This document shows, in pieces, positions 3,001-9,000 of a stretch of DNA of 12,797 nt (positions are counted from its first letter, which is position 1; the number at the start of each line of letters is the position of its first letter). The position numbers are program-made. Origin of the DNA: a virus. Location of the stretch: UHGV virus genome UHGV-1675436. One strand, written 5' to 3'.

Positions 3001-6000
3001 GGCGACTCCGGATCCACTTTCAGCGCCAGCACCTTTTTCGCTTTATCCTGGATGATGCTGGTGGCAGGAACCGAAGGCACAAGGTCACTTTCCCGGGTGA
3101 CAGACGGCACAACAGGCTTTGGTAATCTCAGTGCCTTACGGGCTGCACTTTCCGGTAAGGCATCCGCCAGGTCATTACGAATCAGCCACCAGCACAGTTC
3201 CGGCATTGTCACAACGTGACTGTCATCAAAACCGAGATCCCGACGCACAACAGACAACACCCAGCGGGCACAGTTATCCGTTGCCATTGATTCCAGCCGT
3301 TCCGTGAACTGATCGCGCAGCTGGTTATCGCAGTGCCAGCACAGACGGATTGCGCCCGGCGCGTGTCGCATTGTGGTCATGTTCTCGCTGTGCCAGTCGG
3401 AATGAGGCCACTGGCAGCCTTTTTCACGAAGTAACCAGCTTTCAAGACATTCCACGCCACCAGCACGACGGATCACTGCCTCATTGCGGAACACGGCCCG
3501 AACGGCAGGATCATCCGCCAGCGGTTGTGATGCCGCCGGAACGGCACCACTGGCGAAAGATGAATAACGTTCCGGCTCAGGCTCCAGCAGGACACGCCCC
3601 TGCATAAACAGGGGCATCAGCTCTGAACCTGGCCTGAACAATACGATCCCCATACGCGGGGCAATTTCAGGGGTCAGTAGTGCTCTCACGGTCACCTCAA
3701 TGAACGGTATCGAGCAGCTTTAACAGCTCAGGGAATCGGGATTCGAAGAAATGCGGCTGCGTCTCGCGCGGATTTGCGGGACTGGTGATGTTCTTGCCGA
3801 ACATGCAGCCTTTCGCTGTCAGCGACCAGAATTTTTTGATGTTGTTAATCGCGGTACGGCTGTATCGTTCGCGTTGTTCAACGATCCCCAGCTTCTCCAT
3901 CTGGTGATATGCCTGATTAGCCGTAAGGCGGATACCATACTGTTTCAGCAGTGCACTCAGCGACAGCGTAGGACGACTTGAGCCATCAGGCGCGTCAGCA
4001 GGAGCATCAATGGCATAGCGCGGTGCCAGATTCGGTAAGCCAACAGCCTCCTGGAGTTTCTGACAGGCACCAAGCACTGAAGAGTTAGACAGGTTTAACT
4101 CCCTGCGCATAAAGTCCAGCAGAATCACTCCAGCCTGCATCTTGTCAGCAGCCTGTCCGGATAATTTTTCCGGTGCGCTGGTTACCATGTCGAAAGTACG
4201 GATCACCTTCAGATGGAATGACGGGCTGATCCACATTGCATAGGCATACACCAGTTCCTTGCAGACATACGTTCCCCGTTCATTTCCCCCATGAATCACA
4301 CTCACCGGGTCAACACCCAAATTCTGGGTGTTGGTCAATTCATGAACAAGCTCAACAGTTTGTTGGCTGGAAAGAAACTTTCCTGGCTCCTTGGTTCTGG
4401 CATTTGCACCAGATGCTACTGCTGCGCGATGCAGATCGTTCAGGCTGTAACGCCCATAAGCATCACGACGAACTTCAATACCATCAATGACCATCAGATT
4501 ATTCATACTTCGTTTCTCCTCTTGATCAGGCGGCTGCACCCGCCGTTTTCTCGTACTTACTGATAGTGATCTCGACCTTCCCTTTCGGGATAACCGGTCC
4601 CCACTCCACCAGCATTCTTTTCACCTGTCTGTCGTCTTCCCACACACCCGCGTGGGTCAGGGCGTCAAACAGCGCCTTGTTATAGTTGTCCAGATCGCGG
4701 ATCCGGTTATCCGGAGGAAACAACACGATCTCCACTGAAGCAGGTGCCGACGTTGGTTTCGGCAGACGACGTAACTGCTCAACTATTGCTGCGCACGCCG
4801 CGCTCTGAAATTTTCGCCCCGCCTCGCTTATCAGGCTCTTACCAGCAAATGCCCCTTTGTTGGGGTGTCGCCAGTACGTGTTCACACTGGGCGGGAAAGG
4901 AAGGATCAACTTCATACTTTCAGGCCCCTCTCATGTAACCAGTGTGCTGCACGCAACCTAGCGTTCTCCTCACCGGCAAGCAGTGCGCGGATGATACCGA
5001 CCGCTTCGCTGTCGTCGTCCTTCACTGCGGTATGAAGCGTGATCCCCCGGGCCACGCCACGCTTTATCGTGATGACGCCTTTTTTCTCCAGTGCGCGAAG
5101 ATGCTCCACCGCTGCATTCACTGAACGGTATCCCAGCATGGTTGCCACCTCCTGATTGGTTGGCGGGAAGCCACGTTCTTTCTGGTAAGAAATCAGCATA
5201 TCCAGCACCTGCTGCTGGCATTGAGTTAACGTCGTCATGCCGCCATCTCCCTGACCAGTTTTTCCGCCTGCTGGCGAACCTGCGCCAGAAAGGCCTCACC
5301 ACATGCCTCAAGTTCATCGCGCCCGATGTAGCTGATTGCCGGTCCCTTCCAGGTCTTGTCGAAAACAGCAATAGCACCAGCGAAGAACGCTCCTGTCGGC
5401 ACCTGCTTCTCATCCTTCGGGATAAACCAGGCAGGCAGTTCAAAACCAATACGCCCGCGAATAAAAGCAATATGGTCTGCATCTTCCGGCCACCAAACTT
5501 CGCTGGTGGCAGCTTTGATCAGGAAAACATAGCGCCCGCCCTTATCACGCATGGCACTGGCATGCTTCATGATGTAACGCATGCCGGTGATGTATTGCCC
5601 CTCATGCTGACTGGCGCGGCTGTATGGGGGATTACCAAAGGCAGCACCTTTAAGCTCCGCAAGACGTTCTGACCAGTCATGCGCCAGCGCGTTGTCTTCC
5701 GCCGTGTAATACGCAGCACATTTGGCGTTATCACCGTCAGTGAACAGATCCAGAACAAACGGGCCAAACAGGGTGTTAATTCCCCAGAAAATGTTGTCCG
5801 GCGTGCGCCACTGATCGCCCACGTCCTTCAGTTCATGGGCTGGTTTGTTCCGCAGTTCCACCAGCGCCTGGCAATATTTATTACTCATTAAGCCCCCACG
5901 TAATTCCCTGACAGATACCACTCTTCACCCGATGCAGCGCGCTTGCTGCTTTTCCGTAAGCACCGCTCACGACGCGCCAGAAAATTGTTTCGTTCTGGCT

Positions 6001-9000
6001 GGGAGTGGCTTTCACGGAATGCCGCCATCCACACGGTTGCAGCACGACGGTATAAGCCTCTTGACTCCAGTTCTTCAGCCTGGCGGGTCAGGCACAAAAT
6101 CACCCGGGGATCGTTAGTGCCGACATAGAAATTGCGCACAGGTCTGGTTTCACGAACTGGTTGTGGTTCCGGCTCCTGCGCTCTCTCAGTCAGGCGTGGG
6201 AAATGTCTGCGTGTATCTCCTTCACAACGGTGAGCCACACGCCCACTCTGACGTAACTTGCTTGCTGACTGCAGAACGCGCTGCCGTGAGTAACCTGCAA
6301 AAGCATCCGCAATGTCTCCGGAAGTACACCCCGGATGGGCTTCAATGAATTTCTGAACTTCATTCAAAAGACTCATGATCACCCCCTGAATCCTGCCGGG
6401 ATCTGGCTGTAGTCCACGTTGTCGTAACTGGCTTTGAAGTACGGGTCCTCGCGTCTGGCTGCAGATACCGCAGGAACTTCCCAGAATTCTTCGAAATGAC
6501 GATCCGGACCAAAGAACGTGACAGCCTGTTTCACAAATTGTGTGCCGCTGTTACCCATCGCAGATACCCATCCCGCGTAGCGTTTCACACCTTCCAGCAT
6601 GGTTTCGGGGTTTACTCCCTCATTCAAACGGGCTTTCCAGGCTTTGAAGGCTGCAGATTTTGAATTGCCACCAGCACGTTTGGGATATGCCAGCCATGCC
6701 TGCTCAAACTCCGGAGAATATTCCGGTCGGTTTGAACGAACTCGCACGGACTCATCAACTGATGCACCAACAGCTATTGGTTCATTGACTGGTTCTTTGA
6801 CTGGTTCAAAAGAGTGACTGGTTCTGGGTGAATCTCCTGCACTACCCCCTGGTGCAACTCCTGCACTACCTGGTGAATTTGCTGCACCAGATAGTGAATT
6901 ATTTGCACTACCCCCTAGTGAATCTCCTGCACCATCCAGATGAAGGAGATAGATATTACTTGAGTTACCTTTTTCACCTTTCCGGGTGACTTTTTTTACC
7001 AGCCCGGACTCACAAAGGGCCGCAATATGATTCATCACAGAACGTTTGCTAATCTCGCACTGGTCAGCAATATGCTGGTAGCTGGGCCAGCACTCACCCT
7101 GATCGCTGGCATTATCAGCCAGCTTGATCAGAACCAGTTTTCGCAATGGATTACCCACTCGAATTTTCATCGCTTTAACCATCAGCTCCATACTCATGCT
7201 GCACCTCCGAGATGCTTCATGTTTTTTCCGGAGCGAAAGGCTATAAGCGGCATACTGACGCGGTAATTACGGCCCAGCGGTTCACAAATCACCTTCTGGC
7301 ATTCACGGTCAACCAGGCTAACACGTAGAACATGCCCTGCAGGTGTGGTGTACCACTGCCCAACTGTAGGAATTGATGTTTTTTTACGCTGAAGCAAACG
7401 GCAAATATTGAGGATCAACGGATTAAGCATGACGATGCCCTCCGCTGATATTCAGGAGACGGTGAATATGAAAATTAGCCTTATCCGCCAGACGAATACG
7501 TTCAGCCTGCAAGTTAAGAAGGGTTTCTACCAGAACTTGATGCGCCTGCGGATCCGAAAGAGTTACCTTGCGCAGAGCACGTAGTGCAGTTGTTACATAA
7601 CTGAGTTTATGTAAGTCTTCATCATTCAGACGAGAGAGGGCTGGGACAGTAGCCATGATGGCAGCCTCCGTATGCAATGGATAACTTCCACCACCGGAAA
7701 CGCCAATTTCGCTGGTGGTGAACTGAACGGGGTTGGCGTAACCGGCGTTATCGGAAACCGGCGCACCTTTCGGTGCCCCCGTCCAGCCCACCATAATTTG
7801 GGTGTGCACAGACGCAGACGATAAAAAAGACGCTGGCGCGTCATATATCGCCGATAACATTTCCAGGACGCCAATCCCGGCACCCGCTTTATAAGGTGCC
7901 TGAACAGTGTAACGTCCCGGAATGGCAGAATCAATGTGCTGGTGGTCCTTCACACTCAACAAAATCACGCCTGAATTTCCACAAAGGACTAAAGCACTCA
8001 TGCGGGTAGTCTTTGCGAAGATAGATAACGCGCTGTGTTTCTGGCTCCCAACGAATAACATGGACATAAAGCCCTCTTCCGTCACGAAACCAGCGGTTAA
8101 GTTCCTGCACAACTCGCCCCCCACAGTCAGGTAAAGTTCTCTGTGGTTACTTACAGCCAGGTGATTTGGTAATCTGCATTCATGCCGTAACAACAGGTGT
8201 TCAGCGACGCTGACCACCAGCTGTTGCGACAAACGGTTATTTGCCGTTAAACTGTTCATGCGTTAGTTTCTCCACAGACACAAAACGCCACGACGCCCGG
8301 AGCTGCACACTCGCGGGCGTCACTCTTTTCTGGAGCGCAAAAGATTTTGTAGACCAGTGCTGCATGCTCCTGGAGCTTCGAAATTGACAGATACAACTCA
8401 TCATTAATTGCTGTCCGCTCGTGTGGCTCCACTACCCCATCTTCGATTGCCGAACGAATCTGCTTTGAGTAACTCCCGATCTGTTCGATGACTTCCAGCA
8501 GGCGCTGGTTTATATCGGCGTTCTCTACTTCCTCAATTTCAGGAAGCGATACAAACACCCCACCAGCAGACTGTGCGACAGCATCCGCAATGTAGTGAGT
8601 GCCAGCCGCGCGCTGTAAAATCATTGCCCATCCCAGCGGGAAAATCTGATCGCCATCTGCACGAAGGCGGTTGAATAAAGCGTTCTCTGTTACATCCAGC
8701 CACTCAGCAGCTTCAGCGTAACCCCCCGGCAACGCCGCGATAGTTTTTCTGACAGCTTTCACGTACCACTCAGGCTGTTTTTCTACTTTCCAGTGATGCT
8801 TACCCACGGTTAGCCTCATCGTTCTGTGGTTAAAAATTGAAGGTGTTCTGTTAATCTTTCGGATAGATATCCGGTCTTAAGTCAGATTTCGTAATTGCAC
8901 CTGACGTGCATTGCTCAAGTTTTTTAGCCAGCACAAAACTGGCTTTTTTATAACCATTGAAAACCAGCCGTAAGTAGCCTGGTGTTGAGCCAACTTTTCC

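What the first reader, a model, noticed from the sequence alone, without database searches (positions are those of the whole stretch)
5235..6376. Second orphan methyltransferase (Dam-family) coupled to a PerC/ANR-like regulator
The prophage carries two unrelated orphan methyltransferases: the beta-class enzyme in the late moron slot and this small Dam-like NPPY enzyme in the nin-like region. The upstream gene encodes a PerC/ANR-like domain (LE..GL.RRAA..W) fused to an N-terminal winged-helix-like region, and its stop overlaps the methyltransferase start as TAATG. PerC-like prophage regulators are known to cross-activate chromosomal virulence genes in pathogenic E. coli, so this pair may connect prophage induction to host gene expression.
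Basis: partly seen in the sequence, partly recalled or inferred. Interest (0 to 1): 0.45.

Follow-up and report, generated by a model that had tools for sequence, protein, structure and literature searches.

The report
Prophage yfdN-like regulator and Dam methylase
This is the ordinary, already annotated yfdN (PerC-family) gene and phage adenine methyltransferase gene of an SfV/CPS-53-type lambdoid prophage found in about half of complete E. coli genomes, and their overlap is normal operon packing rather than a special regulator–enzyme pairing.

Summary
On the minus strand, 5888..6376 encodes a 162-aa protein with a PerC domain above Pfam's threshold. 5235..5888 encodes a 217-aa NPPY enzyme of the phage N6-adenine methyltransferase family (PF05869/TIGR01712). 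The stop and start overlap as TAATG. A predicted structure supports the N-terminal winged helix.

The window is collinear with phage SfV. Similar DNA occurs in 2685 of 5426 complete E. coli genomes, where RefSeq already names the genes "yfdN: PerC family transcriptional regulator" and "phage N-6-adenine-methyltransferase".

The overlap is not specific to this pair, because every gene junction from the replication gene to RusA is overlapping or 2 nt apart. In 135 related loci the frame O-like, YfdN-like, LexA-DNA-binding-domain-only, RusA is constant and the methyltransferase is an exchangeable cassette:
- PF05869 in 104 loci
- classic D12 Dam in 9
- MT-A70 in 1
- absent in 13, where the same TAATG junction joins the YfdN-like gene to the LexA-like gene

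No paper in the searchable library tests YfdN-type function. Only group 1 PerC homologues (PchABC) activate LEE; other tested homologues are inactive or repress it.

Verdict: already known and ordinary. The three-family methyltransferase slot is a minor curiosity.

The parts
5888..6376 (-). yfdN-type gene, 162 aa. Residues 1-60 form a winged helix-turn-helix, residues 61-89 a disordered linker, and residues 90-143 a three-helix PerC/ANR-like domain. A conserved tail W.L.G.Y.G follows.
   Evidence: Pfam PerC scores 36.1 bits against GA 22.6, over residues 98-149. PHROG 1324 'transcriptional activator' gives E 1.7e-78. Identity to RefSeq 'PerC family transcriptional regulator' clusters is 99%. 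The AF2 model has pLDDT 82.5 with H-H-H plus a beta hairpin, then three helices. Foldseek superposes residues 1-~65 on ArsR/MarR/BlaI/Fur winged helices at rmsd 1.6-2.8 A, with E only 0.02-0.1. Identity to EPEC PerC is 37% over 46 aa. L103, R111, A112 and C139 are invariant in 35 homologues.
5235..5888 (-). Phage N6-adenine DNA methyltransferase, 217 aa, NPPY at residues 86-89. Probably GATC-specific. It is orphan and equals SfV dam.
   Evidence: PF05869 gives E 2e-45 and TIGR01712 scores 254.6 bits against a cutoff of 97. The region including this gene is 97.9% identical in DNA to SfV, where the gene is annotated dam. tblastn finds it in 534 phage records. VT2-Sakai orf32, a member of the same family, is 31% identical, and M.EcoVT2Dam is reported to target GATC (PMC6602927).
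5886..5890 (-). TAATG stop/start overlap between the PerC-like gene and the Dam gene, with a GGGGG Shine-Dalgarno-like run 5-9 nt upstream of the ATG.
   Evidence: Read directly from the sequence. The same junction sequence occurs in 102 related loci before PF05869. It also occurs before the LexA-like gene where the methyltransferase is absent.
4912..5238 (-). LexA DNA-binding-domain-only protein, 108 aa, with no S24 peptidase domain. It is the constant downstream flank of the methyltransferase slot, and its ATG overlaps the Dam stop (ATGA).
   Evidence: PF01726 LexA_DNA_bind gives E 2.9e-19 over residues 1-65. It is present after the slot in all related loci that extend far enough, apart from the truncated K-12-type remnants L084/L085.
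6379..7197 (-). O-like/DnaD-like replication initiator, the constant upstream flank. Its stop lies 2 nt before the PerC-like ATG.
   Evidence: HTH_36 gives E 1.8e-11 and PHROG 270 'replication initiation protein' gives E 2.4e-88. SfV orf39 is annotated 'replication protein'.
4526..4915 (-). RusA Holliday-junction resolvase, the next gene of the same operon. It has an ATGA overlap with the LexA-like gene.
   Evidence: PF05866 gives E 1e-14.
277..1329 (-). The other orphan methyltransferase, beta class, 350 aa (SfV orf48). It lies in the Q-dependent late transcript, is followed by a terminator-like hairpin at 270-254, and is possibly of the M.EcoGI/GII type.
   Evidence: PF01555 gives E 2.4e-42. 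DNA identity to SfV orf48 is 97.2%. The protein is 81% identical to the phage 1720a-02 enzyme, which PMC5778455 calls very similar to M.EcoGII.

Best explanation
This is the yfdN-dam segment of the early-right (nin-like) operon of an SfV/CPS-53 (KpLE1)-type lambdoid prophage.

Shown here:
- The upstream gene is the YfdN orthologue. It is a two-domain protein with a winged helix-turn-helix, a flexible linker and a three-helix PerC/ANR-type domain.
- The downstream gene is an orphan phage N6-adenine methyltransferase of family PF05869/TIGR01712.
- Both lie in one tightly packed run of minus-strand genes: cII-like, Ash, O-like, YfdN-like, Dam, LexA-domain-only, RusA, KilA-N, DUF968, Q. The junctions read from the O-like gene to RusA are overlapping or 2 nt apart, and no sigma-70-like promoter or terminator was found on that strand inside the O-like-to-RusA stretch.
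- The methyltransferase is an exchangeable cassette in a fixed slot. Across relatives the slot holds PF05869, D12 Dam, MT-A70 or nothing.

Inferred:
- The genes are silent in the lysogen and are expressed from pR after induction or infection.
- The enzyme methylates GATC on rapidly replicating phage DNA. This would keep progeny DNA Dam-methylated when host Dam is outpaced or absent, protecting it against restriction of unmethylated GATC and against MutH-type processing.
- The YfdN-like protein acts independently of the enzyme as a DNA-tethered PerC/ANR-type modulator. By analogy with Pch it most likely relieves H-NS-type silencing, primarily on phage DNA.
For: Identity and annotation:
- The window is collinear with SfV from orf31 through orf48.
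- Megablast finds a match in 2685 of 5426 complete E. coli genomes, with RefSeq names 'yfdN: PerC family transcriptional regulator' and 'phage N-6-adenine-methyltransferase'.
- Operon context comes from the Pfam results.
- No minus-strand promoter or terminator consensus lies between about 4500 and 7200.
- Junction overlaps were read from the sequence.

Cassette behaviour:
- Among 80 viral contigs with a 99-100% identical YfdN, 70 have PF05869 and 7 have none.
- Among 53 contigs whose YfdN-like protein is only about 30-35% identical, gene order is the same. The slot holds PF05869 in 34, PF02086 in 9, PF05063 in 1 and nothing in 6.
- Start/stop overlaps occur in every configuration.

PerC-like protein:
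- The PerC core motif and the invariant Cys match both PerC and the ANR description of three helices and a conserved Cys (PMC4038620).
- Pch acts by displacing H-NS (PMC4764244).

Enzyme specificity and expression:
- A PF05869 member, VT2-Sakai orf32, corresponds to M.EcoVT2Dam, reported to target GATC (PMC6602927).
- Prophage methyltransferases are reported silent in lysogens (PMC5778455, PMC6602927).
Against: - The enzyme's specificity was not measured, and the one characterised relative I could link to it is only 31% identical.
- SfV's depositors predicted a separate dam promoter inside orf40, so expression independent of pR is not excluded.
- The anti-H-NS role of the YfdN-like protein rests only on 37% identity over a 46-residue core.
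- PerC homologues differ in activity: some activate, some are inactive and one represses.
- The Foldseek E-values for the winged helix are weak (0.02-0.1), although the hits are consistent.
- GATC frequency in the window is unremarkable (54 sites against 45 +/- 6 expected), so the sequence gives no hint about methylation pressure.
Confidence: 0.8

Rival explanations
1. The PerC-like gene and the Dam gene form a functional pair that links prophage induction to host gene expression, with the PerC-like protein cross-activating chromosomal virulence genes such as LEE1/ler.
For: - The PerC domain scores above the Pfam threshold.
- Prophage-encoded PchA, PchB and PchC do activate ler (PMC5931665, PMC4764244).
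- The two genes are adjacent and their stop and start overlap.
- Authors studying ler thought it prudent to delete K-12 yfdN from their reporter strain (PMC5931665).
Against: - Only group 1 Pch proteins activate LEE. PchD, PchE and PerC2/3 are inactive (PMC6265319, PMC4332760). A PerC-like protein from a phage-inducible island represses LEE1 (PMC11773190).
- The YfdN type has a different, two-domain architecture and is only 37% identical to PerC over 46 aa.
- It occurs in about half of complete E. coli genomes and in K-12-type remnants that lack LEE.
- The methyltransferase is dispensable or replaced in 23 of 135 loci.
- The overlap junction is generic.
Confidence: 0.08
2. The YfdN-like protein is a dedicated controller of the methyltransferase cassette, like a C-protein. 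It would set the timing or level of whichever adenine methyltransferase sits downstream.
For: - It has a winged-helix DNA-binding domain.
- It lies immediately upstream of, and overlaps in stop/start with, three different methyltransferase families.
Against: - The YfdN-like gene persists intact in 13 loci with no methyltransferase and in K-12-type loci with a truncated one.
- The same overlap then couples it to the LexA-like gene.
- No operator-like repeat or promoter was found in front of the pair.
Confidence: 0.07
3. The YfdN-like protein is a replication accessory. It would occupy the position that helicase loaders such as lambda P hold after the initiator gene.
For: - It always follows the O-like/DnaD-like initiator.
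- No separate helicase or loader gene was recognised in this module.
Against: - It shows no similarity to any loader or helicase family in Pfam, NCBIfam or PHROGs.
- The C-terminal half of the initiator already matches DnaD-like helicase-loader and primosomal PHROGs.
- Nearly identical YfdN-like genes sit behind two different initiator types.
Confidence: 0.05

Closest known systems
E. coli K-12 YfdN (CPS-53/KpLE1 prophage) and SfV orf40
   Same: This is the same gene. Identity to the RefSeq clusters named 'PerC family transcriptional regulator' is 98-99%, and RefSeq gives the gene name yfdN in several genomes. It has the same position after the O-like gene. DNA identity to SfV across the region is 97.9%.
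   Different: Nothing material differs. PGAP starts the ORF at the GTG two codons upstream (164 aa), whereas homologues support the ATG (162 aa). In the K-12-type loci the downstream methyltransferase is truncated after residue 89, but here it is intact.
EPEC PerC and EHEC PchA/B/C (Pfam PF06069)
   Same: They share the core motif LE..G.YRRAA..W....ER....R..C, with 37% identity over 46 aa. The family is helical, is carried on mobile elements, and passes the Pfam gathering score.
   Different: PerC is a single-domain protein of 89 aa, and each group 1 pch gene is 315 bp (PMC5931665), so both are far shorter. This protein adds an N-terminal winged helix, a roughly 30-residue linker and a conserved W.L.G.Y.G tail. 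No activation of ler or relief of H-NS silencing has been shown for it.
ANR (AraC negative regulator) family: Aar, Rnr (NCBIfam NF033650)
   Same: The C-terminal domain has three predicted helices and an invariant cysteine, as described for ANR (PMC4038620). It gives a sub-threshold hit at E 3.3e-5 over residues 96-142.
   Different: The score of 23.6 bits is below the cutoff of 32. ANR proteins are 39-80 aa and lie near AraC-family activators. This protein is 162 aa, has two domains and sits in a phage replication/nin operon with no AraC gene in the window.
Phage N6-adenine methyltransferases of PF05869/TIGR01712 (SfV Dam, M.EcoVT2Dam)
   Same: It is a full-length match to both models with the NPPY catalytic motif. 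It is small, orphan and located in the nin region, as is VT2-Sakai orf32.
   Different: It is only 31% identical to VT2-Sakai orf32 and 42 residues longer. Its specificity is inferred, not measured. It is not in the family of host Dam (PF02086).

Membership tests
Pfam PF05869 / TIGR01712 phage N-6-adenine-methyltransferase | Sequence match above the curated cutoffs over the whole model | tested here: met
   PF05869 scores 154.9 bits (cutoff 28.1) over model positions 3-167 of 169. TIGR01712 scores 254.6 bits (cutoff 97.05) over positions 1-165 of 165.
Pfam PF05869 / TIGR01712 phage N-6-adenine-methyltransferase | Catalytic (D/N)PP(Y/F/W) motif | tested here: met
   FGNPPYS, with NPPY at residues 86-89, read from the translation. 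It aligns with NNPPYS of VT2-Sakai orf32.
Pfam PF05869 / TIGR01712 phage N-6-adenine-methyltransferase | N6-adenine methylation of GATC | not testable with these tools
   This is inferred only. A family member, M.EcoVT2Dam, is reported to target GATC (PMC6602927), and it is 31% identical.
Orphan (solitary) methyltransferase | No cognate restriction endonuclease next to the gene | tested here: met
   The flanking genes are the PerC-like gene and a LexA-DNA-binding-domain gene, then RusA and the O-like gene. The same arrangement holds in 104 related loci.
Host-type Dam (D12 class, PF02086) | Match to the D12 class model | tested here: not met
   No PF02086 hit was found at E<=1. A genuine PF02086 enzyme occupies the same slot in other loci (L087:4444-5268, E 5.2e-54).
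PerC family (Pfam PF06069) | Sequence match above the gathering score | tested here: met
   It scores 36.1 bits against 22.6, over residues 98-149 and model positions 5-56 of 90. BLASTP against EPEC PerC gives 37% identity and E 1e-6.
PerC family (Pfam PF06069) | Small single-domain protein of about 90-105 aa | tested here: not met
   The protein is 162 aa with an added winged helix and linker. EPEC PerC is 89 aa.
PerC family (Pfam PF06069) | Activation of LEE1/ler by relief of H-NS silencing | not testable with these tools
   No functional test of a YfdN-type protein was found in the library searched. It was only deleted as a precaution (PMC5931665).
ANR family (NCBIfam NF033650) | Match above the curated cutoff | tested here: not met
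   It scores 23.6 bits against a cutoff of 32.
ANR family (NCBIfam NF033650) | Protein of 39-80 aa with three helices and a conserved Cys, encoded near an AraC-family activator | tested here: inconclusive
   Three helices and an invariant C139 are present. The size, the two-domain architecture and the genomic context do not fit (PMC4038620).
Winged helix-turn-helix DNA-binding domain (N-terminal 60 residues) | H1-(b1)-H2-H3-b2-b3 topology that superposes on known winged helices | tested here: met
   The AF2 model has pLDDT 87-93 over residues 1-60. Foldseek superposes 58-70 residues on ArsR/SmtB, MarR, BlaI/MecI, Fur and F-93 at rmsd 1.6-3.6 A, with E only 0.02-0.1. Homologue P0184 passes the Pfam MarR_2 threshold, and L087's homologue gives HTH_24 at E 3e-4.

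The most novel reading that the evidence does not exclude
The fixed position between the YfdN-like gene and the LexA-DNA-binding-domain-only gene may be a selected 'Dam slot'. It is filled alternately by three sequence-unrelated adenine methyltransferase families (PF05869, PF02086, PF05063), and each cassette's start overlaps the YfdN-like stop. The most novel reading not excluded is that the flanking DNA-binding proteins are tied to that methylation. For example, the YfdN winged helix could read methylated GATC, as the winged helices of DpnI-type proteins do. The triad would then be an epigenetic timing module of the lytic programme rather than three independent genes.
Probability: 0.06. Interest if true: 0.6.

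Novelty: already known. Interest (0 to 1): 0.17.

Why it matters
It matters little as a discovery. The genes, their families and their adjacency are already in RefSeq annotation for thousands of genomes and in the SfV GenBank record U82619.2.

The check is useful in three ways:
- It removes the suggestion of a special regulator–enzyme unit.
- It shows that YfdN-type proteins are a distinct two-domain branch of the PerC/ANR superfamily (winged helix plus PerC domain). No paper in the searchable library tests their function, even though they sit in about half of complete E. coli genomes.
- It documents a methyltransferase slot filled by three different enzyme families. This is a tidy example of non-orthologous replacement in lambdoid phages and a reasonable starting point for asking why these phages want their own Dam activity.

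Tried and rejected
- PDB sequence searches with both proteins found nothing meaningful.
The single genome scan was therefore spent without a view across species.
- P0148 as a query found no viral contig.
- Porter et al. 2005 (PMC543544) and the SfV genome paper (requested as PMC134923) are not held. I could not check what they say about PerC2/3 sequences or whether SfV Dam was tested.
- The M.EcoGII paper has no supplement held, so the beta-class enzyme could be linked to M.EcoGII only through phage 1720a-02.
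- P0201, an apparent protein with six PerC repeats, turned out to be low-complexity noise.
- I considered PchD or PchE as the YfdN type and rejected it. They lie in SpLE1 and in Sp7 (the O-island 51 cryptic prophage CP-933C), not in a nin region (PMC1890555, PMC3378721).
- GATC counts and consensus promoter/terminator scans gave no signal specific to the pair.

Full report
**What is there**

The finding's coordinates hold two minus-strand ORFs.
- 5888..6376 encodes 162 aa from the ATG. PGAP-style annotation uses a GTG two codons upstream, giving 164 aa.
- 5235..5888 encodes 217 aa from the ATG at 5888.
- The plus strand reads CATTA at 5886-5890, which is TAATG on the coding strand, so the upstream stop and the downstream start share one base.
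- Both starts have a GGGGG Shine-Dalgarno-like run 5-9 nt upstream, read directly.

**Family assignments**

The downstream protein matches Pfam PF05869 'Dam' (E 2e-45, 154.9 bits, cutoff 28.1) and the NCBIfam equivalog TIGR01712 'phage N-6-adenine-methyltransferase' (254.6 bits, cutoff 97), full length in both. It carries NPPY at residues 86-89. It does not match the host-Dam family PF02086, so 'Dam-family' here means the phage family that Pfam happens to call Dam.

The upstream protein matches Pfam PerC over residues 98-149 (36.1 bits, gathering score 22.6). It matches the NCBIfam ANR model only below cutoff (23.6 against 32). It aligns with EPEC PerC, taken from pMAR2, at 37% identity over 46 residues.

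**The N-terminal region**

A search of 1.84 billion cluster representatives found only about 100 relatives. These include full-length two-domain homologues down to 25% identity.

From a 35-sequence alignment (A1) AlphaFold2 gave a model with mean pLDDT 82.5.
- Residues 1-60 form three helices plus a beta hairpin, with pLDDT 87-93.
- Residues 61-89 are disordered.
- Residues 90-143 form three helices, with pLDDT about 96.

Foldseek against the PDB superposes the first 58-70 residues on ArsR/SmtB, MarR, BlaI/MecI, Fur-family and SSV1 F-93 winged helices at rmsd 1.6-3.6 A. The E-values are weak (0.02-0.1) but the hits agree with one another. One homologue passes Pfam MarR_2 and another gives HTH_24 at E 3e-4.

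L103, R111, A112 and C139 are invariant in A1. Three helices and a conserved cysteine are also how the ANR family was described (PMC4038620). A conserved tail W.L.G.Y.G has no counterpart in PerC and remains unexplained.

**Context**

The window is collinear with Shigella phage SfV from orf31 to orf48. There the pair is orf40 and dam, with 97.9% DNA identity across the region.

Pfam places the pair in a run of minus-strand genes, opposite a plus-strand cI-type S24 repressor. The minus-strand order is:
- cII-like (CP76)
- Ash
- a 78-aa ORF
- O-like/DnaD-like initiator
- PerC-like
- Dam
- LexA DNA-binding domain only
- RusA
- KilA-N
- DUF968/HNH
- Q
- a 75-aa ORF
- a beta-class PF01555 methyltransferase, followed by a terminator-like hairpin

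No sigma-70-like promoter or terminator consensus lies on the minus strand between about 4500 and 7200.

**How common and how known**

Megablast of 5100-6500 finds a match in 2685 of 5426 complete E. coli genomes, and 1637 of those cover at least 80% of the query. RefSeq labels the genes 'yfdN: PerC family transcriptional regulator' and 'phage N-6-adenine-methyltransferase'. Fifty phage records also carry the region, including Stx2c and Stx2a phages, SfV, mEp460 and 1720a-02.

Uhlich et al. call yfdN 'the K12 unique PerC homologue' and deleted it from a ler reporter strain as a precaution (PMC5931665). I found no functional test of the YfdN type in the library searched. The only other mentions are screens, for example an overexpression effect on glycogen (PMC2853380).

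**Is the pair a unit?**

The overlap is not special to it.
- Dam/LexA-like and LexA-like/RusA both overlap as ATGA.
- O-like/PerC-like is TGAtcATG, or GTGA if the GTG start is used.

I collected 135 related loci and typed the slot after the YfdN-like gene. In both sets below the gene order O-like, YfdN-like, slot, LexA-domain-only, RusA, (KilA-N), DUF968 is kept.

| Slot content | 82 E. coli-type loci (80 viral contigs with 99-100% identical YfdN, plus 2 genomes at 98%) | 53 contigs with YfdN-like about 30-35% identical |
|---|---|---|
| PF05869 | 70 | 34 |
| D12-class Dam, PF02086 (E 5e-54) | 0 | 9 |
| MT-A70, PF05063 (E 1e-23) | 0 | 1 |
| Empty | 7 | 6 |
| Deletion fusing Dam 1-76 to the LexA-like gene | 1 | 0 |
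| Dam truncated after residue 89 (K-12-type, the yfdM remnant) | 2 | 0 |
| Locus ends before the slot | 2 | 3 |

Every cassette's start overlaps the YfdN-like stop, as TAATG, ATGA or GTGA. Where the slot is empty, the LexA-like ATG takes over the same TAATG.

The constant partners are therefore the YfdN-like and LexA-domain genes. The methyltransferase is a facultative, replaceable insert, and translational coupling is a general property of the operon.

**Likely function**

*Enzyme.* VT2-Sakai carries one annotated methyltransferase, orf32 in its nin region. It is a PF05869 member (218 bits) and 31% identical to this protein. M.EcoVT2Dam is reported to target GATC (PMC6602927, citing Radlinska and Bujnicki 2001). 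That two other Dam-type families occupy the same slot fits a shared role. From its position I infer that the enzyme is made only after induction or infection. It would keep fast-replicating phage DNA GATC-methylated, independently of host Dam. Prophage methyltransferases are reported silent in lysogens (PMC5778455, PMC6602927). None of this was measured here.

*YfdN-like protein.* The best-characterised relatives, the Pch proteins, act by displacing H-NS from silenced DNA (PMC4764244), and ANR proteins act by binding other regulators. A winged helix tethered to such a module suggests a DNA-targeted anti-silencing or modulatory factor of the lytic programme. This is an inference from distant homology and I give it modest weight.

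**The virulence link**

Only group 1 PerC homologues (PchA, PchB, PchC) activate ler. PchD, PchE and PerC2/3 do not (PMC6265319, PMC4332760). PchE represses curli and adhesion (PMC6265319, PMC7369912). A PerC-like protein from a phage-inducible island represses LEE1 (PMC11773190).

PchD and PchE lie in SpLE1 and in Sp7, the O-island 51 cryptic prophage CP-933C, so they are not the YfdN type (PMC1890555, PMC3378721). The YfdN type is widespread in E. coli genomes generally.

**Verdict**

The feature is already known and annotated.

Two things go modestly beyond routine annotation:
- YfdN-type proteins form a distinct winged-helix-plus-PerC architecture.
- The methyltransferase slot is filled by three different families.

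Noticed in passing
window 5235-5888; loci L087:4444-5268, L086:4471-5139, L009: The position between the YfdN-like gene and the LexA-domain gene is a methyltransferase slot. Across 135 related loci it holds PF05869 (104), D12-class Dam PF02086 (9), MT-A70 PF05063 (1) or nothing (13). The start always overlaps the YfdN-like stop.
   Followed up: yes
window 4912-5238 (minus strand): A 108-aa protein consists of the LexA DNA-binding domain (PF01726, E 2.9e-19) plus a short tail, with no S24 peptidase domain. It could act as an uncleavable LexA mimic. It follows the slot in all related loci that extend far enough, apart from the truncated K-12-type remnants.
   Followed up: partly
window 277-1329 (minus strand); L139:3084-4139: The beta-class orphan methyltransferase (SfV orf48) is 81% identical to the enzyme of phage 1720a-02. 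The M.EcoGII paper calls that enzyme very similar to the non-specific adenine methyltransferase M.EcoGII, so this one may methylate adenine in any context. The link is indirect, and no M.EcoGII sequence was available to compare.
   Followed up: partly
RefSeq phage records NC_003444, NC_019716, NC_009514, NC_021857 at the dam gene: These records label this methyltransferase 'phosphoadenosine phosphosulfate reductase'. The label apparently comes from PHROG 33262, whose profile is a fusion in which the Dam domain is only the C-terminal part (profile positions 283-492 of 495). It looks like a propagated misannotation.
   Followed up: partly
L084 and L085 4489-4755; L023 4489-4969: In the K-12-type loci the Dam gene is cut off after residue 89, which is the yfdM remnant. 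In L023 a deletion fuses Dam residues 1-76 to LexA-like residues 24-108.
   Followed up: partly
window 6374-6382: RefSeq starts yfdN at a GTG, giving 164 aa and a GTGA overlap with the O-like stop. All divergent homologues begin MSL/MSI at the ATG, giving 162 aa, as in the SfV record.
   Followed up: yes
window 5888-5920 (residues about 152-162 of the PerC-like protein): A conserved C-terminal tail W.L.G.Y.G, with G157 and G161 nearly invariant in 35 homologues, is absent from PerC and modelled with low confidence. It may be a partner-binding motif.
   Followed up: no
window 6379-7197 and loci L004, L006, L009: Nearly identical YfdN-like genes sit behind two different O-like initiators, about 98% or about 39% identical to the window's. 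No separate helicase or helicase-loader gene was recognised in the module.
   Followed up: partly
window 7423-8259 (minus strand); L001 9316-10467: The Ash-family gene here (SfV orf37, labelled 'immunity region') is replaced by a Rha-family regulator at the same position in E. coli strain 510016. This is another mosaic swap.
   Followed up: no
window 10913-11737 and 11838-12401 (plus strand): A DUF2303 protein (E 8e-93) and a weak YfbR-like HD-domain protein lie on the early-left side. At the matching position, RefSeq names a nearby gene yfdP and the phage 1720a-02 record notes one as yfdR. This is consistent with a CPS-53/KpLE1-type prophage.
   Followed up: no
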